A DNA stretch of 64,000 nt from NCBI RefSeq assembly GCF_048403405.1, contig NZ_CP183129.1, one strand, 5' to 3'. Source of the stretch: Escherichia coli. Its GTDB lineage: Bacteria > Pseudomonadota > Gammaproteobacteria > Enterobacterales > Enterobacteriaceae. The notes under the pieces were generated by a model, which saw only the letters and a program-made list of their open reading frames with translations, did not search any database and was not told the origin of the DNA. Positions 8,574-46,675 of this stretch are shown here, piece after piece. The position numbers and the translations under genes were made by a program. Position 1 is the first letter of the stretch, and each line of letters opens with the position of its first letter.

Positions 8574-9741
8574 TCCACAACCGCTGGGCGGCAAAATCAT
8601 CAGTAAACCGGTCATGATTTTTGGACCGTTAATCGTCATCTGTATGCTCCTGATTGTGAAGCGTCTGGTGTTCGGTCTAGGCTCAGTCTCTGACCTGAAC
8701 GGCGGCTTCCCGTGGGGTGTGTGGATCGCGTTTGACCTGTTGATCGGCACCGGCTTTGCCTGTGGCGGCTGGGCGCTGGCGTGGGCGGTATACGTCTTTA
8801 ACCGTGGGCAATACCATCCGCTGGTGCGTCCGGCGCTGTTGGCGAGTCTGTTCGGTTACTCACTGGGTGGCTTGTCGATCACCATCGACGTTGGTCGCTA
8901 CTGGAACCTGCCGTACTTCTACATTCCGGGTCACTTCAACGTGAACTCGGTACTGTTCGAGACGGCGGTCTGTATGACCATCTACATCGGCGTGATGGCA
9001 CTGGAGTTTGCTCCGGCATTGTTTGAACGATTGGGCTGGAAGGTGTCGCTACAGCGTCTGAACAAGGTGATGTTCTTCATCATCGCGCTCGGTGCGCTGC
9101 TGCCGACTATGCACCAGTCTTCAATGGGGTCGCTGATGATCTCGGCGGGCTACAAGGTGCATCCGTTGTGGCAGAGCTATGAAATGTTGCCGTTGTTCTC
9201 GCTGCTGACGGCGTTCATCATGGGCTTCTCGATTGTCATCTTTGAAGGTTCGCTGGTGCAGGCGGGTCTGCGTGGCAACGGTCCGGATGAAAAGAGTCTG
9301 TTCGTTAAGCTGACCAACACCATCAGTGTGTTGCTGGCGATTTTCATCGTGCTGCGCTTTGGCGAGCTTATCTATCGCGACAAGCTGTCGTTAGCGTTTG
9401 CCGGTGACTTCTATTCCGTGATGTTCTGGATTGAAGTCCTGCTGATGCTCTTCCCGCTGGTCGTTCTGCGTGTGGCGAAGCTGCGTAATGATTCCCGCAT
9501 GCTGTTCCTGTCAGCACTGAGCGCGCTGTTAGGTTGTGCAACCTGGCGTCTGACCTATTCGCTGGTGGCATTCAACCCGGGCGGCGGTTACGCCTACTTC
9601 CCGACCTGGGAAGAACTGTTGATTTCTATTGGTTTTGTGGCTATTGAGATTTGCGCTTACATCGTACTCATTCGTCTACTGCCGATACTTCCTCCTTTAA
9701 AACAAAACGATCATAATCGTCATGAGGCGAGCAAAGCATGA
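8563..9741 (+). CDS. hybB: hydrogenase-2 integral membrane subunit
   Basis: 392-aa hydrophobic polytopic protein; overlaps hybA end and hybC start as in the hyb operon. Confidence 0.94.
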
Positions 9742-11441
9742 GCCAGAGAATTACTATTGATCCGGTAACCCGTATTGAGGGGCATTTACGCATCGATTGC
9801 GAAATCGAAAATGGCGTCGTTTCGAAAGCATGGGCTTCCGGTACCATGTGGCGCGGCATGGAAGAGATCGTGAAAAACCGCGATCCGCGCGATGCATGGA
9901 TGATTGTGCAACGTATCTGTGGCGTATGTACTACCACTCACGCGCTGTCTTCCGTTCGTGCGGCAGAAAGTGCGCTGAATATCGACGTTCCGGTTAACGC
10001 GCAATACATCCGTAACATCATTCTGGCTGCGCACACCACGCATGACCATATCGTTCATTTCTATCAGCTTTCGGCGCTGGACTGGGTGGACATCACTTCT
10101 GCACTGCAAGCTGACCCAACCAAAGCCTCCGAAATGCTGAAAGGTGTTTCGACCTGGCACCTGAACAGCCCGGAAGAGTTCACCAAAGTTCAGAACAAGA
10201 TCAAAGATCTGGTTGCCAGCGGTCAGTTGGGGATTTTCGCCAATGGCTACTGGGGTCACCCGGCGATGAAACTGCCGCCGGAAGTGAACCTGATTGCGGT
10301 AGCGCACTACCTGCAGGCGCTGGAGTGCCAGCGTGACGCTAACCGCGTCGTGGCGCTGCTGGGCGGTAAAACGCCGCACATTCAGAACCTGGCAGTAGGT
10401 GGGGTCGCTAACCCGATCAACCTCGACGGTCTGGGCGTGCTGAATCTTGAGCGTCTGATGTACATCAAGTCCTTCATCGACAAGCTGAGCGACTTTGTTG
10501 AGCAGGTTTATAAGGTTGATACCGCGGTTATCGCCGCGTTCTATCCGGAATGGCTGACGCGCGGTAAAGGTGCGGTGAACTACCTGAGCGTGCCGGAATT
10601 CCCGACCGACAGTAAAAACGGCAGCTTCCTGTTCCCGGGCGGCTACATTGAGAATGCGGATCTGTCCTCGTATCGTCCGATCACTTCTCATTCCGATGAA
10701 TACCTGATCAAAGGCATTCAGGAAAGCGCGAAGCACTCCTGGTATAAAGACGAAGCGCCGCAGGCACCCTGGGAAGGTACCACCATTCCGGCTTATGATG
10801 GTTGGTCTGACGACGGGAAATATTCCTGGGTGAAATCACCGACTTTCTACGGCAAAACGGTAGAAGTGGGTCCGCTGGCTAATATGCTGGTGAAACTGGC
10901 GGCAGGTCGCGAATCTACCCAGAATAAACTGAATGAAATCGTTGCGATTTATCAGAAACTGACTGGCAACACGCTGGAAGTGGCGCAGCTGCACTCCACG
11001 CTGGGCCGTATTATTGGTCGTACCGTTCACTGCTGCGAATTGCAGGATATCCTGCAAAATCAATACAGTGCACTGATCACCAATATCGGCAAAGGCGATC
11101 ACACCACCTTTGTGAAGCCGAACATTCCGGCAACGGGTGAGTTCAAAGGCGTAGGTTTCCTCGAAGCACCGCGCGGTATGCTCTCTCACTGGATGGTGAT
11201 CAAAGACGGTATTATCAGTAACTACCAGGCAGTTGTTCCATCAACCTGGAACTCTGGCCCGCGTAACTTCAATGATGACGTCGGTCCTTACGAGCAGTCG
11301 CTGGTGGGTACACCGGTTGCCGATCCGAATAAACCGCTGGAAGTGGTGCGTACCATTCACTCCTTCGACCCGTGCATGGCCTGTGCGGTACACGTAGTGG
11401 ATGCCGACGGCAACGAAGTGGTTTCAGTGAAGGTTCTGTAA
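9738..11441 (+). CDS. hybC: hydrogenase-2 large (NiFe) subunit
   Basis: 567-aa ORF; N-terminal RIEGH motif and C-terminal DPCMACAVH NiFe ligand motif. Confidence 0.96.
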   Translation: MSQRITIDPVTRIEGHLRIDCEIENGVVSKAWASGTMWRGMEEIVKNRDPRDAWMIVQRICGVCTTTHALSSVRAAESALNIDVPVNAQYIRNIILAAHTTHDHIVHFYQLSALDWVDITSALQADPTKASEMLKGVSTWHLNSPEEFTKVQNKIKDLVASGQLGIFANGYWGHPAMKLPPEVNLIAVAHYLQALECQRDANRVVALLGGKTPHIQNLAVGGVANPINLDGLGVLNLERLMYIKSFIDKLSDFVEQVYKVDTAVIAAFYPEWLTRGKGAVNYLSVPEFPTDSKNGSFLFPGGYIENADLSSYRPITSHSDEYLIKGIQESAKHSWYKDEAPQAPWEGTTIPAYDGWSDDGKYSWVKSPTFYGKTVEVGPLANMLVKLAAGRESTQNKLNEIVAIYQKLTGNTLEVAQLHSTLGRIIGRTVHCCELQDILQNQYSALITNIGKGDHTTFVKPNIPATGEFKGVGFLEAPRGMLSHWMVIKDGIISNYQAVVPSTWNSGPRNFNDDVGPYEQSLVGTPVADPNKPLEVVRTIHSFDPCMACAVHVVDADGNEVVSVKVL

Positions 11442-11935
11442 TGCGTATTTTAGTCTTAGGGGTTGGCAATATTTTGCTGACCGATGAAGCCATCGGCGTG
11501 CGGATTGTCGAAGCGTTAGAGCAACGATACATTCTGCCGGATTATGTTGAGATCCTCGATGGCGGCACGGCGGGAATGGAGCTGCTTGGCGACATGGCAA
11601 ATCGCGATCATCTGATTATTGCGGATGCCATTGTGTCGAAAAAGAACGCGCCGGGAACGATGATGATCCTGCGGGATGAAGAAGTTCCGGCGTTGTTTAC
11701 CAACAAAATCTCTCCGCATCAGCTTGGCCTGGCCGACGTATTGTCGGCCCTGCGCTTCACCGGTGAGTTTCCGAAAAAGCTGACCCTGGTCGGCGTGATC
11801 CCGGAATCGCTGGAGCCGCACATCGGCTTAACGCCGACGGTCGAAGCGATGATTGAACCTGCGCTTGAGCAGGTTCTGGCTGCGCTGCGCGAATCAGGCG
11901 TGGAAGCCATCCCACGGGAGGCGACTCATGACTGA
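11441..11935 (+). CDS. hybD: hydrogenase-2 maturation endopeptidase
   Basis: ORF track 11372..11935 extended; MRILVLGVGNILLTDEAIGVRIVEAL... starts at ATG 11441 overlapping hybC stop (TAATG). Confidence 0.93.
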   Translation: MRILVLGVGNILLTDEAIGVRIVEALEQRYILPDYVEILDGGTAGMELLGDMANRDHLIIADAIVSKKNAPGTMMILRDEEVPALFTNKISPHQLGLADVLSALRFTGEFPKKLTLVGVIPESLEPHIGLTPTVEAMIEPALEQVLAALRESGVEAIPREATHD

Positions 11936-22447: not shown

Positions 22448-23011
22448 ATGATGTCATCTCGTTTGATTATTGCGCTGATTATCATGCTCTTAGCCCCGGG
22501 TGTGCAGGCGCACAATTTCGTCACTGGTAAAACGGTTACCCCTGTTTATATCCAGGAAGGCGGCGAGCTGCTTCTGAATAGCGACGACGAAATTCACTAC
22601 CAAAAGTGGAACAGCACACAGCTGGCGGGAAAAGTCCGCATTATTCAGTATATCGCCGGGCGTAAGTCGGCGAAGAAAAAGAACTCACTGTTAATTAAAG
22701 CGGTTGAAGCGGCAAACTTTCCGCAGGATCGTTTTCAGCCTACCACCATTGTGAACACTGATGATGCCATCTTTGGTACCGGCTATTTTGTCGTTGGCAA
22801 AATCGAAAAAAATAAACGCCGCTATCCATGGGCGCAATTCGTTATTGACGGCAATGGACAGGGACGCGTTGCCTGGCACTTGCAGGAGCAGAGTTCAACC
22901 ATTCTGGTGCTGAATAAAACCGGGCAAATTCAGTGGGCAAAGGACGGCAGCCTGACGCCGGAAGAGGTAGATCATGTCATTGCGCTGGCGCAGAAGCTGA
23001 TCAATGAATAA
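22448..23011 (+). CDS. YtfJ-family periplasmic protein (paralog)
   Basis: 187-aa ORF with signal peptide MMSSRLIIALIIMLLAPGVQA; extensive similarity to E. coli YtfJ (e.g. TIVNTDDAI, LTPEEV...LAQKL). Confidence 0.8.
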   Translation: MMSSRLIIALIIMLLAPGVQAHNFVTGKTVTPVYIQEGGELLLNSDDEIHYQKWNSTQLAGKVRIIQYIAGRKSAKKKNSLLIKAVEAANFPQDRFQPTTIVNTDDAIFGTGYFVVGKIEKNKRRYPWAQFVIDGNGQGRVAWHLQEQSSTILVLNKTGQIQWAKDGSLTPEEVDHVIALAQKLINE

Positions 23012-23041
23012 AAAACTCAAAGGATTGAGGGCGTTAGTGAG

Positions 23042-24112
23042 ATGAAGCTGGTTGAACACTACATCATGCGTGGTACGCGCCGTCTGGTGCTGATTATCGT
23101 CGGTTTTCTGATCTTTATTTTCGCCAGCTACTCCGCACAGCGTTATCTGACCGAAGCGGCAAATGGGACATTAGCTCTTGATGTTGTGCTGGATATCGTT
23201 TTCTACAAAGTGCTGATTGCACTGGAGATGTTGTTACCTGTTGGACTGTATGTGTCAGTTGGCGTGACGCTAGGGCAGATGTATACCGATTCGGAAATCA
23301 CAGCTATCTCTGCGGCGGGGGGCAGTCCGGGACGCTTGTACAAAGCCGTTCTTTATCTGGCGATACCGCTAAGTATTTTTGTCACCCTTCTGTCGATGTA
23401 TGGTCGTCCGTGGGCTTATGCGCAGATTTATCAACTGGAGCAACAGTCACAGTCGGAGCTGGATGTTCGCCAGTTGCGGGCAAAGAAATTTAACACTAAC
23501 GATAACGGACGAATGATCCTTTCGCAGACGGTTGATCAGGATAATAATCGCCTGACTGACGCGCTGATTTATACTTCTACTGCCAATCGAACCCGCATTT
23601 TCCGCGCCCGTTCGGTTGATGTGGTTGACCCATCACCTGAGAAACCGACCGTTATGTTGCATAACGGGACCGCCTATCTTCTCGATCATCAGGGGCGTGA
23701 CGACAACGAACAGATCTACCGTAATCTGCAATTACATCTGAATCCGCTGGATCAAAGCCCTAACGTCAAACGCAAAGCAAAATCGGTCACGGAGCTGGCG
23801 CGCTCCGTCTTTCCAGCCGATCATGCCGAACTGCAATGGCGACAAAGCCGTGGCCTGACAGCATTGTTGATGGCGCTGCTGGCCATTTCATTAAGTCGGG
23901 TAAAACCGCGGCAAGGGCGATTTTCAACATTATTGCCACTGACGTTGCTGTTTATTGCCATTTTTTATGGCGGCGACGTCTGCCGTACGCTGGTGGCTAA
24001 CGGCGCGATTCCCCTCATTCCTGGTTTGTGGTTAGTACCCGGACTCATGCTAATGGGCCTGCTGATGCTGGTCGCACGCGACTTCTCTTTGCTGCAGAAA
24101 TTTTCCCGATGA
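23042..24112 (+). CDS. LptF/LptG (YjgP/YjgQ) family permease paralog, first of pair
   Basis: 356-aa ORF; N-terminal RY(L/I) motif, TM helices flanking a central periplasmic domain, LptF-like architecture. Confidence 0.8.
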   Translation: MKLVEHYIMRGTRRLVLIIVGFLIFIFASYSAQRYLTEAANGTLALDVVLDIVFYKVLIALEMLLPVGLYVSVGVTLGQMYTDSEITAISAAGGSPGRLYKAVLYLAIPLSIFVTLLSMYGRPWAYAQIYQLEQQSQSELDVRQLRAKKFNTNDNGRMILSQTVDQDNNRLTDALIYTSTANRTRIFRARSVDVVDPSPEKPTVMLHNGTAYLLDHQGRDDNEQIYRNLQLHLNPLDQSPNVKRKAKSVTELARSVFPADHAELQWRQSRGLTALLMALLAISLSRVKPRQGRFSTLLPLTLLFIAIFYGGDVCRTLVANGAIPLIPGLWLVPGLMLMGLLMLVARDFSLLQKFSR

Positions 24113-25188
24113 ATGTTTTCAGTCGCTATTTAATCCGTCATCTCTTTCTCGGTTTTGCCGCCGCCGCAGGGCTATTGCTGCCGCTTTTTACCACCTTCAA
24201 CCTGATTAACGAACTGGATGATGTCAGCCCGGGCGGTTATCGCTGGACTCAGGCGGTGCTGGTGGTGCTGATGACCTTACCGCGTACACTGGTCGAACTT
24301 TCGCCGTTTATCGCCTTATTGGGAGGGATTGTTGGCCTGGGGCAGTTATCGAAAAACAGTGAGCTTACCGCCATTCGCAGCACTGGGTTTTCTATCTTCC
24401 GTATTGCACTGGTGGCGCTGGTTGCCGGGATATTGTGGACTGTTTCGTTAGGCGCGATAGATGAGTGGGTGGCGTCGCCATTGCAGCAACAGGCGCTGCA
24501 AATCAAATCGACTGCCACCGCGTTGGGGGAGGACGATGACATTACCGGCAATATGCTTTGGGCCAGGCGCGGTAATGAATTTGTGACGGTGAAATCGCTG
24601 AACGAGCAGGGCCAGCCTGTGGGCGTGGAGATATTTCATTATCGCGACGATCTCTCGCTCGAATCCTACATTTTTGCACGCAGTGCCTCCATTGAAGACG
24701 ACAAAACGTGGATCCTGCATGGTGTGAATCATAAAAAATGGTTGAATGGCAAAGAAACGCTGGAAACATCAGATAATCTTGCCTGGCAATCGGCCTTCAC
24801 CAGTATGAATCTTGAAGAGTTATCGATGCCGGGAAATACTTTTTCTGTCCGTCAACTTAATCATTACATCCATTATTTGCAGGAAACCGGGCAACCCAGC
24901 AGCGAATACCGCCTTGCACTGTGGGAAAAACTGGGACAACCCATCCTGACCCTGGCGATGATTTTGCTGGCTGTGCCGTTTACCTTTAGTGCCCCGCGTT
25001 CGCCTGGGATGGGTAGCCGTCTCGCTGTAGGCGTCATCGTGGGCTTACTCACCTGGATCAGCTATCAAATCATGGTCAATCTGGGGTTGCTATTTGCGTT
25101 GAGCGCACCTGTTACCGCGCTCGGTTTACCGGTAGCGTTTGTGATGATGGCGTTGAGCCTGGTGTATTGGTATGACAGACAACATTAA
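24109..25188 (+). CDS. LptF/LptG (YjgP/YjgQ) family permease paralog, second of pair
   Basis: ORF track 24028..25188; likely start ATG 24109 overlapping upstream stop (ATGA); MNVFSRYLIRHLFLGF... LptG-like. Confidence 0.8.
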   Translation: MNVFSRYLIRHLFLGFAAAAGLLLPLFTTFNLINELDDVSPGGYRWTQAVLVVLMTLPRTLVELSPFIALLGGIVGLGQLSKNSELTAIRSTGFSIFRIALVALVAGILWTVSLGAIDEWVASPLQQQALQIKSTATALGEDDDITGNMLWARRGNEFVTVKSLNEQGQPVGVEIFHYRDDLSLESYIFARSASIEDDKTWILHGVNHKKWLNGKETLETSDNLAWQSAFTSMNLEELSMPGNTFSVRQLNHYIHYLQETGQPSSEYRLALWEKLGQPILTLAMILLAVPFTFSAPRSPGMGSRLAVGVIVGLLTWISYQIMVNLGLLFALSAPVTALGLPVAFVMMALSLVYWYDRQH

Positions 25189-25189
25189 A

Positions 25190-25216
25190 CCCGCCGTGGC
25201 GCAGCGCCACAGCGGG
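25190..25216. terminator. hairpin in the 34-bp gap between convergent operons
   Basis: cccgccgtggcgc / gcgccacagcggg imperfect inverted repeat directly after the permease stop codon. Confidence 0.5.
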
Positions 25217-25222
25217 CTCACA

Positions 25223-26395
25223 TTACTGCTTCAGAGTAGCAAATGCCTGAATGATGGCATCGATTTGCTCACGACTGTGGGCAGCGTTTACGCTACAGCG
25301 CAGCAGCGTGATGCCTGCAGGCGCGGCAGGTGGCAGGATAAGATTCACATAAACGCCCAGCGAAATAAGCTCGCGCCAGATGCGTAAACCTTCCTCTTTC
25401 GAACCGATTATTACTGGCACTACCGGGCTAATATGTGAACTTAACTCATAACCCAGTTTTTGCAGACCGTCATACAGATGGTTGGCATTATCCATCAGCT
25501 TTTGCCGCAACTCTGGTTGTGTAGCAATGGTTCTTAACGACGAGCGCACGGTCGCAATGCAGGACGGAGAAGGAGAGGCGGTAAAAATATACGGGCGGCT
25601 GCCGTAGCGCAGCACTTCCATCGCTTCCGAACCGACAGCAAAACCGCCAATCGAGGCCAGACTTTTACTGAAAGTACCAACGATAATATCCACATCATCT
25701 TCAACGCCAACGGCTTCAGCCAGTCCGCGCCCCGTTGCGCCTAACACGCCAAACGAATGCGCTTCATCGACAATCAAATAACCACCGAGACGACGTTTGA
25801 TATCAACAATTTCCGCCAGCGGCGCAACGTCACCGAGCATACTGTAGATGCCTTCAACGATGATAATCGCCTCTTTTGCCCGTTCACCGAGGCGAACCAT
25901 GCGCCGTTCCAGATCTTTAGCATCGTTATGGCGGAAACGAATAATTTCCGCGCCACCGAGAGAACAGGCGTCATAAATACTGGCGTGGCTGTCGGCATCC
26001 AGTAACACCACGGCGTTATGGTCGGCAAGTGCGCTGATGACGCCTAAATTAGCGGTATAACCGGTTGAAAAAACGATAGCGGTAGGGCGATTAAAAAACT
26101 CGGCGATCTCTTTCTCTAACGCCAGATGCGGCGCATAACTGCCGTTTGCCATACGAGAACCGGTGGTGCCGGTGCCTTGGGCCGCTAACGCTGCCTGACC
26201 TTCGGCGATGGCATCATGATTGAAGGTTAATCCGAGATAATTATTGGTCCCGGCCAGAATCACTTTTTTATTGCCGATCCGGCCTTCGGTGGCGGAATAC
26301 ACTCCATCAATACAGGTACCAAACGGCGTTAACCCGTTGTCACTAAATTGCAGTCGCTCGCCAGCAAGACGCGCATATTTATCGTATAGCCCCAT
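25223..26395 (-). CDS. PLP-dependent alpha-oxoamine synthase, serine palmitoyltransferase-like
   Basis: 390-aa ORF; PLP-lysine motif VGTFSKSLASIGG; family also contains BioF/KBL/ALAS, so the SPT assignment is from gene context. Confidence 0.8.
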   Translation of the reverse strand: MGLYDKYARLAGERLQFSDNGLTPFGTCIDGVYSATEGRIGNKKVILAGTNNYLGLTFNHDAIAEGQAALAAQGTGTTGSRMANGSYAPHLALEKEIAEFFNRPTAIVFSTGYTANLGVISALADHNAVVLLDADSHASIYDACSLGGAEIIRFRHNDAKDLERRMVRLGERAKEAIIIVEGIYSMLGDVAPLAEIVDIKRRLGGYLIVDEAHSFGVLGATGRGLAEAVGVEDDVDIIVGTFSKSLASIGGFAVGSEAMEVLRYGSRPYIFTASPSPSCIATVRSSLRTIATQPELRQKLMDNANHLYDGLQKLGYELSSHISPVVPVIIGSKEEGLRIWRELISLGVYVNLILPPAAPAGITLLRCSVNAAHSREQIDAIIQAFATLKQ

Positions 26396-26643
26396 TATTT
26401 ATTCTCCAGCCATGGAAGTAGTGTTTCCATTAATTGCGCAGGGGTTTTGACATCCAGCAGAATATTAATAGGAATGGAAATATCGAATCTGTCTTCCAGC
26501 ATCATTAAGAGATCCATCACTTTGATCGACTCCAGGCCAAGATCGTTGACGAGATCGCTGTCGGGCTTAATTTCCACACCGTTTTCGACCAAATCCTGTA
26601 AACAGGAAAGGATGTAATCCATTACTATTTCACGATTTACCAT
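26395..26643 (-). CDS. dedicated acyl carrier protein
   Basis: 82-aa acidic ORF with phosphopantetheine-attachment motif DLGLESI; stop overlaps start of the downstream synthase. Confidence 0.8.
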   Translation of the reverse strand: MVNREIVMDYILSCLQDLVENGVEIKPDSDLVNDLGLESIKVMDLLMMLEDRFDISIPINILLDVKTPAQLMETLLPWLENK

Positions 26644-26674
26644 AGAAACGTTAACACACCTTTAAACAAGACAA

Positions 26675-27589
26675 TCAAAATAGCCCGTTGCGTAATGCGT
26701 GTTCCAGGCTAATCCCGGGAAACCAATTAATATCTTCAGAAATACGGTTATTACTTGCTGACCAGTCGGCGTGGGTTAATTCACGGATTTTCGAGCGGGT
26801 CAGCATAGGTTCTTTACCCGCCAGACGGCTCAACGCGGTACTGATATCCGCAAGGCAGGTGAGTACCGACAGAGGAATACCAACCATTCGAACGGAACCA
26901 CAACGGGCGTCGGCGGCAAGCTGTCTTACGCGTTGCCAGTCATAGCCGCCGGCGACGCCATCGCATAATTCATAGGTTTGCGTCTGTACAGTTTCGGCGC
27001 TTAACCACTGCCCCACGGCTTGCGCGAAATCGGTGACGTGCAGGAAAGAGAGCTGTGTATCTGGCGCACCAAGTCGTGGCAGCAGGCCGCGCAGCATCCA
27101 GTCAAACAGCGGTTTTAACTCTTTATCGCCGGGACCATACACGGCTGTCGGGCGAAAAATGCCCAGCGTAATTTCGTCAGCCATTGCGGTCAGTCGTTGT
27201 TCGGCGACGTGTTTGGAATTTGCGTACCAGGAGAGTTCGGGATGGCGCGCCGCCAGCGAAGAGATAAACAGAAAACGTTGGCAAAAGCCGCTCTCTTTTG
27301 CCGCTTGCATCAGTCGCAGGCTGCCGTCAACGTTACAGCGGGTAAAAATCTCTTCTTTGTGCCCGCGCACTTGCCCGGCGCAATGGACCACCGCGCTGGC
27401 TCCGGCAACCAGTTCGCTAAGTGAATGAGTATCTTCCAGAGAACCGCGCACCCAGGTGAGATTATCATTGACGTGAGCGCGGGCAGTACGCGTCAATGCG
27501 CGAACGTGAAAGCCGCGGGCGAGCAGGTTATCGATAATATATTTACCGATAAACCCGGTAGCGCCCGTCACCGCGACAGTTTGATTCAT
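26675..27589 (-). CDS. NAD(P)-binding epimerase/dehydratase-fold reductase (CerR-like)
   Basis: 304-aa ORF; N-terminal Rossmann motif VAVTGATGFIGKYI. Confidence 0.8.
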   Translation of the reverse strand: MNQTVAVTGATGFIGKYIIDNLLARGFHVRALTRTARAHVNDNLTWVRGSLEDTHSLSELVAGASAVVHCAGQVRGHKEEIFTRCNVDGSLRLMQAAKESGFCQRFLFISSLAARHPELSWYANSKHVAEQRLTAMADEITLGIFRPTAVYGPGDKELKPLFDWMLRGLLPRLGAPDTQLSFLHVTDFAQAVGQWLSAETVQTQTYELCDGVAGGYDWQRVRQLAADARCGSVRMVGIPLSVLTCLADISTALSRLAGKEPMLTRSKIRELTHADWSASNNRISEDINWFPGISLEHALRNGLF

Positions 27590-29334
27590 GCCAGGGATTC
27601 CTGCACATGAAGGCTTGCAGCATAAGCCTTCTGATAACGTTTTTTCGCTTCCGCACGGGCAGGCTTGCCGGAGGACGTTCGGGGAATACTGTGGGGCGGC
27701 AACAGATCGATAGCCGCGGTCACGCCAAATTCGCTTTGGATCCGTGCTGCCAGCGCGTGGATAAGCTGCCCGCGACGTTCTTCATCGCTGATCCGACACT
27801 GGATCTGCAAAATGATTTTTTCCTGGGCGGTAACAAAAGCAATCGCATCGCCAGAATGAATTTCCGGTTCCTGTTCCGCAATATATTCAATATCCTGCGG
27901 CCAGATATTACGGCCACGAATAATAATCAGATCTTTAATGCGTCCGGTGACATACAGATAACCGTCCAGCAGATAACCGAGGTCGCCGGTGTCTAACCAG
28001 CCCGTCGCGGCAATCTCGTCTTGCGAAACCTGGTCGCCAAAGTAACCGCTCATCAGGCTGGGGCCGGAGATGCAAATATGGCCTACCACACGTTCCGCGA
28101 CAGGTATACCTGCTTCATTGCGGATTTCAATGCCATGTTCCGGCAACGCTTTACCGCAGTTGACGAAAGTCGATACGGCGCGTGTTTCAGCATCCGGCGC
28201 GACGGCTTTGCCCTGATATTCGAGGATGTCGCGATCCACTTCGTTAACCACAACCCCGGAAGCTTCATCAGAGAAGCTGACAGCCAGCGCATTTTCTGCC
28301 AGTCCGTAGCACGGCATGAAAGTTTTATCGTCAAAGTTGACCTGACGGAAACATTCAGCGAATTGATGGAGTTGTTCTGCGGAGATGGGTTCTGCACCAA
28401 TACCAGCGACGCGCCAGCAGGAAAGATCCAGTTCAGCGAGATCTTTTTCATTCACGCGGCGCTGGCACAATTCATAGCCAAACGGCGGCGCAACGGAAAC
28501 GGTGCCGCGATTTTTACTGATCAATTTAAGCCATTGCAGAGGACGCATGGCAAAATCCTGAGTGCGCAAATAATCTACTGAAAGCTGCGTGGCGACGGGG
28601 GTCAGGAGAAAGCCGACCAGTCCCATATCATGGTAGAAAGGCAGCCAGGAGACGCAGCGGTCGCCAGGGCGTAATTTAATGCCATCGTGGCTTATAGCAC
28701 GTAGATTAGCCATCACTTCGCGATGGGTGATAATGACGCCACGGGGAAAACGGGTGCTGCCGGAGGTGTACTGGAGGTAGGCGATATCGTTCGGAACTGG
28801 ACGCTGGAGCGCAACATCGGCTTCCGGTAATGCCTTAAACCAGGCGTGGCTTAAAACATGTAATTCGGGGTTGTTATGCGTAGCGGCATTGACCAGTGGC
28901 AACCACTCATCACCAGTGATAATGGCTGCGGGCTGGCAACTTGCCAGTAAACCCTGCAGTTTGGCGCTCCAGGAATCCCGCTGACCGACGCCCATTGGAA
29001 TCGCCAACGGGACGGCGACTAAGCCGGCATACTGGCAGGAAAAAAAAGCCTCTACGAACCCGCTACTGGTTTCGGCAATCAGCGCCACGCGATCGCCTTT
29101 TTTCAGGTTCAGCGATAACAACCGCTTCGCACCAGCTTCGGCACGCGCTTTTAACGTCTGATATTCCAGTTGATCTTCAAGTTGGCAACGTCTGTCATAA
29201 AAATTCATTCCGGCGCTACTCAGAGCGGCGTAGTCCAAAGCATCAACCAGCGTTGGAAAATCGGCATAGCGCATAGGTAGGGAATGCGTAAAGATTTTAT
29301 TAGACATATACACCACGAAAAAATTGGATATCAA
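27586..29334 (-). CDS. AMP-dependent synthetase/ligase (fatty acyl-AMP / acyl-ACP ligase-like)
   Basis: 582-aa ORF; adenylation motif YTSGSTRFPRGV; the true start may be the internal ATG at complement of 29305-29307 (MSNKIF). Confidence 0.8.
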   Translation of the reverse strand: MISNFFVVYMSNKIFTHSLPMRYADFPTLVDALDYAALSSAGMNFYDRRCQLEDQLEYQTLKARAEAGAKRLLSLNLKKGDRVALIAETSSGFVEAFFSCQYAGLVAVPLAIPMGVGQRDSWSAKLQGLLASCQPAAIITGDEWLPLVNAATHNNPELHVLSHAWFKALPEADVALQRPVPNDIAYLQYTSGSTRFPRGVIITHREVMANLRAISHDGIKLRPGDRCVSWLPFYHDMGLVGFLLTPVATQLSVDYLRTQDFAMRPLQWLKLISKNRGTVSVAPPFGYELCQRRVNEKDLAELDLSCWRVAGIGAEPISAEQLHQFAECFRQVNFDDKTFMPCYGLAENALAVSFSDEASGVVVNEVDRDILEYQGKAVAPDAETRAVSTFVNCGKALPEHGIEIRNEAGIPVAERVVGHICISGPSLMSGYFGDQVSQDEIAATGWLDTGDLGYLLDGYLYVTGRIKDLIIIRGRNIWPQDIEYIAEQEPEIHSGDAIAFVTAQEKIILQIQCRISDEERRGQLIHALAARIQSEFGVTAAIDLLPPHSIPRTSSGKPARAEAKKRYQKAYAASLHVQESLA

Positions 29335-29678
29335 AAATAAAATGACAATAATGCGGTGGATTATATAGGCATAAAAGATAAATGAGATAGTATTTTCATC
29401 AGTGTGAAAATGAACATTGATTTAAATAATGAGTTTGAGTTTTTTTGTTTTTATTGTGAATGATATTTAATTTATGAATGTATTAAGAAGAAGCCTTGTC
29501 CGGTCGCCTTAAATCGACAAAAGGCATTGTGGCGCTTCTGTGTAGTCTCTGACCTTATCGTAATCATTAATAAATGCTATTTATTCGTCGTTTGTATTCA
29601 TTGGGTTGATTATTAAGGTGCCGTTCGTTGCTGTTGCAACCTGTTTGTCACCGTTAATTATTTGTTACCCACAGAACT

Positions 29679-46007: not shown

Positions 46008-46675
46008 TTAAGATTGAGAATTTGACGAAGTCATATCGCACGCCAACGGGTCGACATTATGTGTTTAAGGATTTAAACCTCGAAATCCCTTCAGGAAAAA
46101 GTGTTGCCTTTATTGGTCGTAATGGTGCGGGTAAATCAACGTTACTGAGAATGATTGGTGGCATTGACCGCCCCGACAGTGGAAAGATCATCACTAATAA
46201 AACAGTATCATGGCCAGTCGGCCTTGCAGGTGGATTTCAGGGAAGTTTAACCGGACGCGAAAACGTAAAATTTGTTGCGCGGTTATACGCGAAGCAAGAA
46301 GAACTGAAAGAGAAAATTGAGTTTGTTGAAGAATTTGCCGAACTTGGCAAGTACTTCGATATGCCGATTAAAACTTACTCATCAGGTATGCGATCGCGTT
46401 TAGGCTTTGGTTTAAGCATGGCATTTAAGTTTGATTATTATATCGTCGATGAAGTAACGGCGGTCGGTGATGCCAGGTTTAAAGAAAAATGCGCTCAATT
46501 GTTTAAAGAAAGGCATAAAGAATCTAGCTTTTTAATGGTTTCACATAGTTTGAATTCATTGAAAGAGTTTTGTGATGTGGCGCTATTCATACCTAGAGAT
46601 CATCAGACTTGTCTTTATCAGAATATTAATGACGCAATTAAGTTATATCAAAATGATGAAAATTTGAACATTTAG
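46004..46675 (+). CDS. kpsT: group 2 capsule ABC exporter ATPase
   Basis: 223-aa ORF with Walker A GRNGAGKST and ABC signature YSSGMRSRL; overlaps kpsM stop. Confidence 0.93.
   Translation: MIKIENLTKSYRTPTGRHYVFKDLNLEIPSGKSVAFIGRNGAGKSTLLRMIGGIDRPDSGKIITNKTVSWPVGLAGGFQGSLTGRENVKFVARLYAKQEELKEKIEFVEEFAELGKYFDMPIKTYSSGMRSRLGFGLSMAFKFDYYIVDEVTAVGDARFKEKCAQLFKERHKESSFLMVSHSLNSLKEFCDVALFIPRDHQTCLYQNINDAIKLYQNDENLNI

What the first reader, a model, noticed from the sequence alone, without database searches (positions are those of the whole stretch)
22448..25188. Orphan LptF/LptG-like permease pair with a YtfJ paralog, convergent on the lipid operon
Two adjacent, translationally coupled (ATGA overlap) genes encode LptF/LptG-family permeases, but no LptB-type ATPase gene is nearby. 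They are preceded by a secreted YtfJ-family paralog. Housekeeping LptFG exports lipopolysaccharide; a second pair placed head-to-tail against a ceramide-like synthesis operon suggests a dedicated export route for that lipid to the outer membrane. Whether it borrows LptB or works without an ATPase is unknown.
Basis: inference. Interest (0 to 1): 0.72.

Follow-up and report, generated by a model that had tools for sequence, protein, structure and literature searches.

The report
Sphingolipid-locus LptF2/LptG2 pair in E. coli
Most E. coli strains carry, beside their ceramide-synthesis genes, a second copy of the two membrane subunits of the lipopolysaccharide exporter; it most likely sends the locus's sphingolipid to the outer membrane using the cell's ordinary LptB motor, an idea already shown in Caulobacter and already pictured for E. 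coli.

Summary
Window 22448-25188 encodes a secreted YtfJ-family protein, then an LptF paralog and an LptG paralog overlapping by ATGA. They converge on spt-acpR-cerR-aasR, and no lptB lies nearby.

The window is E. coli chromosome (yghT...yghO, between pitB and glcC). The pair is a true second copy, 27-29% identical to housekeeping LptF/LptG. It is under strong purifying selection and occurs in about 76% of complete E. coli genomes, almost always with the spt operon. K-12 lost it to an IS5 deletion.

Across 79 species-level loci holding relatives of this LptG, all 57 with adequate flanks carry ceramide-synthesis genes within 10 kb. The LptB-docking coupling helices are the best-conserved segments.

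Caulobacter LptF2/LptG2 are essential only when anionic sphingolipid is made, and they bind the single LptB (bioRxiv 10.64898/2026.04.12.717747, whose Fig 2B shows the E. coli UTI89 locus; also PMC11324152). "Orphan" is misleading, because housekeeping lptFG is also unlinked to lptB.

The Enterobacterales-specific accessory set is not yet explained: YtfJ2 (a Cys-less thioredoxin fold), a CHAD-like protein, the MOP flippase YghQ and the YghRST kinase-like proteins.

The parts
22448..23011 (+). ytfJ2: secreted YtfJ-family paralog (PGAP start 22451). It has a thioredoxin-like fold and no cysteine. It lies 30 nt upstream of lptF2.
   Evidence: Pfam PF09695 at 2.9e-60; TIGR01626 at 215.7 bits. It is 54% identical to K-12 YtfJ. 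The AF2 model has pLDDT 84, and Foldseek matches ResA/TlpA/Etrx/Prx folds at E about 6e-8. It is present in 39 of 40 Enterobacterales-type loci and 0 of 39 others. dN/dS is 0.13.
23042..24112 (+). lptF2: LptF-family permease paralog, 356 aa.
   Evidence: TIGR04407 at 318 bits, cutoff 230. It matches solved LptF chains at 8.5e-32 to 2.6e-20. It is 29% identical to K-12 LptF over the BLASTP local alignment (268 columns), with coupling-helix E85 aligned to LptF E84. dN/dS is 0.04-0.07.
24109..25188 (+). lptG2: LptG-family permease paralog, 359 aa. Its start overlaps the lptF2 stop (ATGA).
   Evidence: TIGR04408 at 303 bits, cutoff 240. It matches solved LptG chains at about 1e-41. It is 27% identical to K-12 LptG over the full length; E85 aligns with LptG E88 and is invariant in alignment A1. 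The overlap was read. dN/dS is 0.04-0.05.
25186..25220 (.). GC-rich hairpin between the two convergent stop codons; a likely bidirectional terminator.
   Evidence: The terminator scan found a 16-pair stem. RNA fold gives -21 kcal/mol, z -3.4.
25223..26395 (-). spt: serine palmitoyltransferase.
   Evidence: PGAP annotation. [quoted passage not shown]
26395..26643 (-). acpR: specialised acyl carrier protein.
   Evidence: PMC9386255.
26675..27589 (-). cerR/epi: NAD-dependent reductase of the ceramide pathway.
   Evidence: PMC9386255.
27586..29307 (-). aasR: acyl-AcpR synthetase (fatty acyl-AMP ligase). The longest ORF runs to 29334.
   Evidence: PMC9386255.
29679..30821 (+). yghO: homolog of the bacterial ceramide synthase (N-acyltransferase).
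   Evidence: PMC9386255 lists yghO ECD_02850 as 'aca'. It is the ceramide gene most often adjacent to lptF2G2 in other taxa.
21615..22439 (+). hyp274: cytoplasmic all-alpha protein with a CHAD-like fold. Its start overlaps the yghQ stop by 1 nt (TGATG).
20266..21615 (+). yghQ: MOP-family flippase candidate, intact here and truncated in K-12.
   Evidence: Weak NCBIfam match to the MOP flippase family, 2e-8.
17851..20220 (.). yghT (-), yghS (+), yghR (+): three paralogous P-loop proteins resembling dTMP kinase.
   Evidence: Weak, sub-threshold dTMP-kinase profile hits; annotation. They co-occur with the locus in Enterobacterales.

Best explanation
These are the E. coli orthologs of the 'LptF2/LptG2' pair found in proteobacterial sphingolipid loci.

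Proposed mechanism:
1. A ceramide-type lipid is made at the inner membrane by AasR, AcpR, Spt, CerR and YghO (bCerS).
2. The lipid is possibly decorated by the YghR/S/T kinase-like proteins.
3. A flippase candidate, the MOP-family protein YghQ, moves it to the periplasmic leaflet.
4. An LptF2-LptG2 heterodimer extracts it from the membrane. Each subunit has six transmembrane helices and a periplasmic beta-jellyroll. The heterodimer is powered by the cell's single housekeeping LptB dimer, which docks on the conserved coupling helices.
5. The lipid is then probably handed to the shared LptC/A/D/E bridge for delivery to the outer membrane.

YtfJ2 is a periplasmic accessory specific to the Enterobacterales version of the locus. 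Its role is unknown.

Shown here: family membership, paralogy, strict genomic linkage to ceramide genes, purifying selection, and conservation of the coupling helix.

Inferred from Caulobacter experiments and not shown for E. coli: the substrate, the use of LptB, and the route across the periplasm.
For: - **Family and architecture.** NCBIfam LptF and LptG equivalog scores exceed the curated cutoffs across the full profile length. Alignments to solved LptF and LptG chains run end to end. Hydropathy is compatible with three TM helices, a roughly 160-aa loop, then three TM helices; LptG2 gave 6 peaks and LptF2 gave 5 at the threshold used.
- **A second copy.** The pair is 27-29% identical to K-12 LptF/LptG. 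The housekeeping pair is present in 5425 of 5426 genomes.
- **Linkage within E. coli.** The pair is at least 80% covered in 4105 genomes and the spt operon in 4067. The 7.4-kb stretch holding both is at least 80% covered in 4067 of 5426. K-12 lost the stretch from the 3' end of yghQ through aasR at an IS5 element.
- **Linkage across taxa.** Of 79 loci, 69 have ceramide genes within 10 kb, and the other 10 are all truncated. Of the 57 loci with at least 7 kb on both sides, 57 have at least one ceramide gene and 53 have spt. pepA is never adjacent. The taxa include Enterobacterales, Pseudomonas, Azotobacter, Nitrococcus and Nitrosomonadaceae. Metagenomic relatives lie in loci carrying CDP-OH_P_transf, DAGK_cat, Metallophos and NTP-transferase genes, which I read as CPG-type head-group genes; one of them also shows the spt operon.
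- **LptB docking.** The windows most conserved against the housekeeping proteins include the coupling helices, at 10/16 and 9/16 identities against 28-31% overall. The critical Glu is retained in both.
- **Selection.** dN/dS is 0.04-0.07 for both genes.
- **No dedicated ATPase.** None lies in the window or in the Enterobacterales flanks. lptB has a median of one place per genome.
- **Experiments in the homologous system.** bioRxiv 10.64898/2026.04.12.717747 reports lethality that depends on spt or cpgB, an F2-G2 complex and LptB pull-down; its Fig 2B includes the E. coli UTI89 locus. PMC11324152 names LptC2/F2/G2 and proposes transport.
Against: - No experiment exists in E. coli. My searches found no report that E. 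coli makes a sphingolipid, and an assay of cell-free extracts of BL21 carrying an empty vector detected no 3-oxo-sphinganine.
- The pair is co-transcribed with yghSRQ-hyp274-ytfJ2, not with spt. In E. coli alone, the substrate could therefore be a product of that operon.
- E. coli has no LptC2. The Enterobacterales locus also lacks the head-group genes (CDP-OH_P_transf, DAGK_cat and others) seen in the non-enterobacterial loci, so the exported head group is unknown.
- I did not compare the E. coli proteins directly with the Caulobacter sequences. Common origin of the duplication is inferred through the Pseudomonas and Azotobacter loci.
- Whole-genome absence of a second, divergent lptB-like gene was checked only at DNA-similarity level.
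Confidence: 0.72

Rival explanations
1. The pair exports a different amphiphile, not the ceramide lipid. Candidates are a product of the co-transcribed yghSRQ-hyp274-ytfJ2 genes, for example a lipid-linked glycan or a phosphorylated glycolipid, or a modified LPS form.
For: In E. coli the pair sits in the yghS...lptG2 operon, on the opposite strand from spt. YghQ is a MOP-family flippase candidate, a family typical of lipid-linked glycan flipping. PGAP names the genes LPS exporters.
Against: Across taxa, the constant neighbours of the pair are the ceramide genes. YghQ, hyp274 and YtfJ2 are absent from all 39 non-enterobacterial loci, which still keep lptF2G2 beside spt or bCerS. All Enterobacterales loci with enough flank also contain the spt operon. 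The Caulobacter genetics tie F2/G2 essentiality to spt and cpgB.
Confidence: 0.1
2. The pair does not borrow LptB. It is driven by another NTPase, for example the locus-encoded P-loop proteins YghR/S/T or another ABC ATPase, or it acts passively.
For: No lptB lies in the locus. Three P-loop proteins are encoded in the same gene cluster.
Against: YghR/S/T resemble nucleotide kinases, not ABC ATPases, and they are missing from many loci that keep lptF2G2. The coupling helices and their catalytically coupled Glu are the best-conserved parts against housekeeping LptF/G. Caulobacter F2/G2 pull down LptB, and there is no second lptB there.
Confidence: 0.08
3. The locus is a silent or decaying relic in E. 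coli, and the pair has no current function.
For: Lost in K-12 and absent from about a quarter of complete genomes without obvious cost. No E. coli sphingolipid was found in the literature searched.
Against: dN/dS is 0.03-0.14 for all 13 genes of the cluster between Escherichia lineages. Intact full-length orthologs are kept in synteny in dozens of Enterobacterales species. [quoted passage not shown]
Confidence: 0.07

Closest known systems
Caulobacter crescentus LptF2/LptG2 (CCNA_01214/CCNA_01213 = CC_1156/CC_1155), the sphingolipid-locus paralogs of the LPS exporter (bioRxiv 10.64898/2026.04.12.717747; PMC11324152)
   Same: - It is a second LptF/LptG pair encoded inside the ceramide-synthesis locus.
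- There is no lptB in the locus.
- The full LptF/G architecture is kept.
- The E. coli UTI89 locus is drawn as homologous in that preprint's Fig 2B.
- Relatives in A. vinelandii and P. luteola, species for which PMC11324152 reports good orthologs of most of the Caulobacter cluster, are 48% identical to the E. coli LptG2.
   Different: - E. coli has no LptC2 and none of the CDP-OH_P_transf, DAGK_cat, Metallophos or NTP-transferase genes found in the non-enterobacterial loci.
- Instead it has YtfJ2, a CHAD-like protein, the MOP-type flippase candidate YghQ and YghR/S/T.
- The lipid product and any phenotype in E. coli are unknown.
- Direct sequence comparison with the Caulobacter proteins was not done here.
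Housekeeping E. coli LptB2FGC lipopolysaccharide extractor (LptF b4261, LptG b4262; PDB 6MHU and others)
   Same: - Same protein family and same length.
- Same gene order, with overlapping lptF-lptG stop and start.
- Conserved coupling-helix Glu: LptF E84 aligns with E85, and LptG E88 aligns with E85.
- Also genetically unlinked to lptB.
   Different: - Only 27-29% identity.
- It sits at the pepA locus rather than in a lipid-synthesis locus.
- The housekeeping pair is universal in E. coli (5425 of 5426 genomes), whereas the second pair is accessory (about 76%).
- LptG residues K34, K40 and K41, which I recall from the literature as implicated in lipid A contacts, align with N31, D37 and D38 in LptG2. 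That difference is not diagnostic, because P. aeruginosa LptG also lacks these lysines.
YtfJ / HI0045 family (PF09695), E. coli K-12 YtfJ (b4216)
   Same: 54% identity, the same length and a signal peptide. It is a full-length Pfam and TIGRFAM match.
   Different: YtfJ2 is fixed immediately next to lptF2 in Enterobacterales sphingolipid loci (39 of 40 loci), while K-12 ytfJ lies between ytfI and ytfK at an unrelated locus. No function is known for either.

Membership tests
LptF/LptG permease family (PF03739; NCBIfam TIGR04407 LptF, TIGR04408 LptG) | Full-length profile match above the curated family cutoff, with each protein scoring best on its own subfamily. | tested here: met
   LptF2 scores 318 bits on LptF (cutoff 230) against 65 on LptG. 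LptG2 scores 303 bits on LptG (cutoff 240) against 85 on LptF. Profile coverage is 2-346/347 and 2-349/351. Precomputed Pfam PF03739 is recorded on the orthologs.
LptF/LptG permease family (PF03739; NCBIfam TIGR04407 LptF, TIGR04408 LptG) | Six transmembrane helices with a periplasmic beta-jellyroll of about 150 aa between TM3 and TM4. | tested here: inconclusive
   Nearly gap-free alignment to solved LptF and LptG chains over residues 4-350. Hydropathy peaks fall in a 3 + 3 pattern around a 160-170 aa polar segment; LptF2 gave 5 peaks at the threshold used. No 3-D model of the pair was made here, so the jellyroll is inferred from alignment.
LptF/LptG permease family (PF03739; NCBIfam TIGR04407 LptF, TIGR04408 LptG) | Coupling helix with the conserved Glu (LptF E84, LptG E88) that couples to LptB. 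| tested here: met
   LptF2 E85 and LptG2 E85 align to these residues. The coupling-helix windows show 10/16 and 9/16 identities against 28-31% overall. E85 is invariant in 14 LptG2 relatives.
LptF/LptG permease family (PF03739; NCBIfam TIGR04407 LptF, TIGR04408 LptG) | Forms an LptB2FG complex and extracts LPS from the inner membrane. | not testable with these tools
   This needs biochemistry. Context argues that the substrate is not LPS.
Sphingolipid-locus LptF2/LptG2 (as defined in Caulobacter) | Encoded within or adjacent to the ceramide-synthesis genes (spt, acpR, cerR, aasR, bCerS). | tested here: met
   The pair lies 34 nt from the spt stop in the window. 57 of 57 relatives with adequate flanks have ceramide genes within 10 kb.
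Sphingolipid-locus LptF2/LptG2 (as defined in Caulobacter) | It is an extra pair in an organism that also has a housekeeping lptFG, and there is no lptB duplicate. | tested here: met
   Housekeeping lptFG is present in 5425 of 5426 E. coli genomes. lptB has a median of one place per genome and is absent from the window and the locus flanks. A highly divergent lptB paralog elsewhere in the genome is not excluded.
Sphingolipid-locus LptF2/LptG2 (as defined in Caulobacter) | Descends from the same duplication as the Caulobacter and Sphingomonas F2/G2 genes. | not tested
The link is indirect, through the A. vinelandii and P. luteola loci that PMC11324152 reports as holding orthologs. The NJ tree of LptG relatives was star-like.
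Sphingolipid-locus LptF2/LptG2 (as defined in Caulobacter) | Deletion is lethal only when the (anionic) sphingolipid is made; physical interaction with LptB. | not testable with these tools
   Shown for Caulobacter only.
YtfJ_HI0045 family (PF09695 / TIGR01626) | Full-length profile match above the cutoff, plus an N-terminal signal peptide. | tested here: met
   PF09695 at 2.9e-60 over profile positions 3-159 of 160. TIGR01626 at 215.7 bits against a cutoff of 151. There is a hydrophobic N-terminus ending VQA|H.

The most novel reading that the evidence does not exclude
Enterobacterales have rebuilt the sphingolipid export and decoration module.

- Caulobacter has LptC2, and the non-enterobacterial loci carry lipid-kinase and CDP-alcohol-transferase type head-group genes. 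In their place, lptF2G2 is fused in one operon with four other elements: a Cys-less thioredoxin-fold periplasmic protein (YtfJ2), a CHAD-like protein (a fold known for polyphosphate binding), a MOP flippase, and three P-loop kinase-like proteins.
- On this reading, YtfJ2 is a new substrate-specific periplasmic partner of an Lpt-type extractor. It could act as an adaptor or chaperone between LptF2G2 and the shared Lpt bridge, or as a head-group-binding factor.
- E. coli would then make a so far undetected, phosphate-rich sphingolipid.
- This would also give the first functional lead for the widespread orphan YtfJ family.
Probability: 0.25. Interest if true: 0.6.

Novelty: already known. Interest (0 to 1): 0.33.

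Why it matters
How bacterial sphingolipids reach the outer membrane was an open question until 2024-2026. The answer emerging from Caulobacter is a second LptFG pair that shares LptB.

This window shows that the same device sits in most natural E. coli strains, including BL21, UTI89 and commensals, and across Enterobacterales. K-12 deleted it, which is why it escaped classical genetics.

That makes E. coli a tractable host for two questions: how one LptB serves two extractors, and what lipid this locus makes. As a discovery it is not new. Its residual value lies in the enterobacterial accessory genes (YtfJ2, the CHAD-like protein, YghQRST) and in the fact that, as far as my searches show, no E. 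coli sphingolipid has yet been reported.

Tried and rejected
- **NJ tree.** A tree of about 140 LptG relatives plus K-12 LptG was star-like. It placed LptG2 with P0124, P0126, P0127 and P0131, away from K-12 LptG, but it is too weakly resolved to prove a single origin. I used gene context instead.
- **Short contig.** The contig for P0124 was only 1.8 kb and gave no context.
- **Substrate-contact residues.** LptG K34, K40 and K41 align with N31, D37 and D38 in LptG2. I rejected this as evidence of a changed substrate, because housekeeping P. aeruginosa LptG also lacks those lysines.
- **YtfJ2 against solved structures by sequence.** No meaningful hit. Only the fold search was informative.
- **LptB-like hits in locus flanks.** The hits at 25-38% identity are generic ABC ATPases. 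The one examined, in Pseudomonas locus L052, is a fused MsbA-like exporter and not LptB.
- **Apparent exceptions to the linkage.** Serratia marcescens-group, Erwinia endophytica, Tatumella and other loci seemed to lack spt. All are truncated on the side where related species carry the operon.
- **Literature.** Searches for an E. coli sphingolipid, for yghQ/R/S function and for YtfJ function found nothing decisive.
- **Extra lptB.** A whole-genome protein-level search could not be run. The DNA-level search is only a weak substitute.
Full report
**Where the window comes from.** The 7.4-kb stretch around the finding is 100% identical to the E. coli MS 69-1 chromosome and is found in 4233 of 5426 complete E. 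coli genomes. RefSeq annotation gives the order gss, pitB, yghT(-), yghS, yghR, a 'lipopolysaccharide biosynthesis protein' (intact yghQ), a hypothetical 274-aa protein, 'YtfJ family protein', 'lptF' and 'lptG'. On the other strand come spt, acyl carrier protein, NAD-dependent epimerase/dehydratase and fatty acyl-AMP ligase. Then follow yghO, glcC and glcDEFGB.

**Checking the observation.** The ORFs are at the stated coordinates.
- The first gene is a full-length YtfJ_HI0045 protein. It hits Pfam at 2.9e-60 and TIGR01626 at 215.7 bits against a cutoff of 151. It has a signal peptide and is 54% identical to K-12 YtfJ, so 'paralog' is correct.
- The next two genes score above NCBI's curated equivalog cutoffs for LptF and LptG respectively: 318 against 230, and 303 against 240. 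Each prefers its own subfamily. Both align end to end with solved LptF and LptG chains.
- The ATGA overlap at 24109-24112 is in the sequence.
- The pair converges on spt. The two stop codons are 34 nt apart and flank a GC-rich hairpin of -21 kcal/mol, z -3.4.
- The only ABC ATPase in the 64-kb window lies at 46016-46603. It is annotated only as an ABC transporter ATP-binding protein beside an ABC permease, within the low-GC capsule gene region; KpsT/KpsM is my reading.
- The absence of lptB nearby does not make the pair special. The housekeeping lptFG lies at the pepA locus and lptCAB about 1.1 Mb away.

**A genuine, maintained second copy.**
- LptF2 is 29% identical to K-12 LptF and LptG2 is 27% identical to K-12 LptG.
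- The housekeeping pair is present in 5425 of 5426 complete genomes.
- Between Escherichia lineages, dN/dS is 0.04-0.07 for lptF2, 0.04-0.05 for lptG2 and 0.13-0.14 for ytfJ2. It is 0.03-0.14 for all 13 genes of the cluster. The locus is therefore under purifying selection and is not decaying.
- K-12 lacks it because an IS5 element (insH9) replaces everything from the 3' part of yghQ to the region upstream of yghO.

- Within E. coli, the permease pair is at least 80% covered in 4105 genomes and the spt operon in 4067. The combined stretch is at least 80% covered in 4067. The two are gained and lost together.
- Beyond E. coli, close LptG2 orthologs (63-75% identity) occur in Hafnia, Shimwellia, Citrobacter, Pseudocitrobacter, Serratia, Erwinia, Pantoea, Pluralibacter, Sodalis and others.
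- I scanned one genome per GTDB species with an alignment of LptG2 relatives (A1). This returned 79 loci from Enterobacterales, Pseudomonas, Stutzerimonas, Azotobacter, Nitrococcus, Methyloversatilis and Nitrosomonadaceae.
- A tblastn of all the window's locus proteins against these loci gave these results. Ceramide genes (spt, acpR, cerR, aasR, yghO/bCerS) lie within 10 kb in 69 of 79 loci. The ten negatives are all truncated to less than 7 kb on one side. Of the 57 loci with at least 7 kb on both sides, 57 have at least one ceramide gene, 53 have spt and 49 have at least four of the five.
- pepA, the housekeeping neighbour, never appears.
- Gene order varies. The operons converge in Escherichia, Hafnia and Erwinia. 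The spt operon lies upstream of yghT in Serratia. bCerS sits directly upstream of lptF2 in Pseudomonas, Azotobacter and Nitrosomonas. The linkage holds in every arrangement.
- Two metagenomic relatives at 45% and 37% identity lie in loci with CDP-alcohol phosphatidyltransferase, DAGK-type lipid kinase, metallophosphoesterase and NTP-transferase genes; one locus also has Tam41 and the spt operon. I read these as the Caulobacter-type ceramide-phosphoglycerate gene set.
- The invariant partner of this LptFG clade is thus ceramide synthesis, not the yghQRST genes.

**Whether it borrows LptB.**
- The windows most conserved between each paralog and its housekeeping counterpart include the coupling helices. 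For LptF2 the sequence is TLGQMYTDSEITAISA against TLGKLYTESEITVMHA, 10 of 16 identical. For LptG2 it is LGGIVGLGQLSKNSEL against LGALLGLGMLAQRSEL, 9 of 16 identical. Overall identity is 28-31%.
- The glutamates equivalent to LptF E84 and LptG E88 are retained. These residues are, by established knowledge of LptB2FG, the ones that couple ATPase activity to extraction. The LptG2 glutamate is invariant in 14 relatives.
- No ATPase gene travels with the pair in Enterobacterales.
- The LptB-like hit examined in a Pseudomonas locus (L052) is a fused MsbA-like exporter, which is a flippase candidate rather than an LptB.
- At DNA level, lptB has a median of one place per E. coli genome. A divergent paralog is not excluded.

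**What is already published.**
- The ceramide genes of this very locus have been studied in E. coli BL21(DE3) as ECD_02850-02854. [quoted passage not shown]
- PMC11324152 named the Caulobacter genes LptC2, LptF2 and LptG2. It proposed that, together with a flippase, they move phosphosphingolipids to the outer membrane. It reports orthologs for at least 13 of the 17 cluster genes in Azotobacter and Pseudomonas luteola.
- The preprint 10.64898/2026.04.12.717747 (April 2026) reports four results. lptF2, lptG2 and lptC2 can be deleted only in spt- or cpgB-deleted backgrounds. F2 and G2 co-purify. Both co-purify with the sole LptB. No lptB duplicate exists.
- That preprint's Figure 2B draws the E. 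coli UTI89 locus with homologous genes coloured. Its discussion states that lptF2/lptG2 occur in many alpha- and gammaproteobacterial sphingolipid loci, while lptC2 is confined to Caulobacter.
It is experimentally supported in the homologous system.

**What remains open, and the YtfJ paralog.**
- The Enterobacterales locus differs from the Caulobacter and Pseudomonas type. It lacks LptC2 and the head-group genes seen in those loci.
- Instead, all 39 enterobacterial loci with any upstream sequence carry ytfJ2 next to lptF2. hyp274 is present in 38 of 40 and yghQ in 33 of 40. None of the 39 non-enterobacterial loci has any of the three.
- YtfJ2 models as a thioredoxin-like fold (pLDDT 84). Foldseek hits to ResA, TlpA, Etrx and peroxiredoxins reach about 6e-8. 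It has no cysteine. By my reading of the fold, a CxxC motif would sit at the strand-to-helix junction; in the 20 aligned sequences that junction reads I-A-G-R-x-S-A-K-x-x-N, with the named residues invariant. It is not a redox enzyme, and its conserved basic loop would suit an anionic ligand. That last point is inference only.
- No function for the YtfJ family turned up in the literature.
- Together with three P-loop kinase-like paralogs (YghR/S/T) and a MOP flippase candidate (YghQ), this hints at a distinct, possibly phosphorylated, head group. My searches found no paper reporting an E. coli sphingolipid.

**Verdict.** The most likely mechanism runs as follows: ceramide synthesis, then flipping (YghQ), then extraction by LptB2-LptF2-LptG2, then the shared Lpt bridge. 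My confidence is about 0.7. The substrate, the ATPase and the periplasmic route are inferred from Caulobacter, not shown for E. coli. The residual novelty lies in the enterobacterial accessory genes, above all YtfJ2.

Noticed in passing
[not shown]
   Followed up: partly
window 17851-20220 (yghT -, yghS +, yghR +): Three paralogous P-loop proteins give only weak, sub-threshold dTMP-kinase profile hits. They travel with the sphingolipid locus in Enterobacterales, and at about 36% identity in some Pseudomonas loci. They are candidate lipid or head-group kinases of unknown substrate.
   Followed up: partly
L003 (K-12 NC_000913.3 3130146-3131340) versus window about 21300-29600: In K-12 an IS5 element (insH9) replaces the 3' end of yghQ, hyp274, ytfJ2, lptF2, lptG2, spt, acpR, cerR and aasR. 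This explains why the locus is missing from the reference strain.
   Followed up: yes
window 22448-23011, residues 69-79 of YtfJ2: At the strand-to-helix junction where, by my reading of the thioredoxin-like fold, a CxxC motif would normally sit, YtfJ-family proteins have I-A-G-R-x-S-A-K-x-x-N, with the named residues invariant in 20 sequences, and no cysteine. This could be an anion-binding loop.
   Followed up: partly
window about 41600-64000: Downstream of glcA lie a frameshifted IS4 transposase and pseudogenised T2SS genes (gspK, gspL). Next comes a low-GC (30-40%) capsule gene cluster with an ABC permease/ATPase pair (probably KpsM/KpsT), kpsE, kpsF-like, kdsB and glycosyltransferase genes. 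After that are IS110 and AbiEii remnants. It looks like a mosaic accessory region unrelated to the finding.
   Followed up: partly
L052 (Pseudomonas marginalis) 696-2729 and 11089-13822: The Pseudomonas version of the locus carries three extra genes: a fused MsbA-like ABC exporter next to spt, a DAGK-type lipid kinase, and an OlsC/LpxO-like hydroxylase after lptG2. The flippase candidate therefore differs between lineages: MOP-type YghQ in Enterobacterales and MsbA-like in Pseudomonas.
   Followed up: partly
L028, L040, L044 (Serratia) versus window: In Serratia the aasR-cerR-acpR-spt operon lies upstream of yghT, on the same strand as lptF2G2, instead of converging on lptG2. The linkage survives the rearrangement.
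   Followed up: yes
L075 (MAG labelled Klebsiella pneumoniae) 8932-11008 and 19203-20530: An lptF2G2-type pair (35% identity) sits next to the full ceramide gene set, with lptA and lptB (64% identical to E. coli LptB) about 8 kb downstream. The organism label looks wrong. In this genome the pair might be the only LptFG.
   Followed up: no
L050 (MAG Pseudomonas sp.) 12202-15312: Here yghS, yghR and yghT homologs are about 70% identical to the E. coli proteins, while the rest of the locus is about 50-55% identical. This suggests horizontal transfer of the kinase-like module.
   Followed up: no
window 27586-29334 (-): The longest ORF for aasR starts at TTG 29334, whereas PGAP starts it at 29307. 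The 5' end of the gene is uncertain by 9 codons.
   Followed up: no
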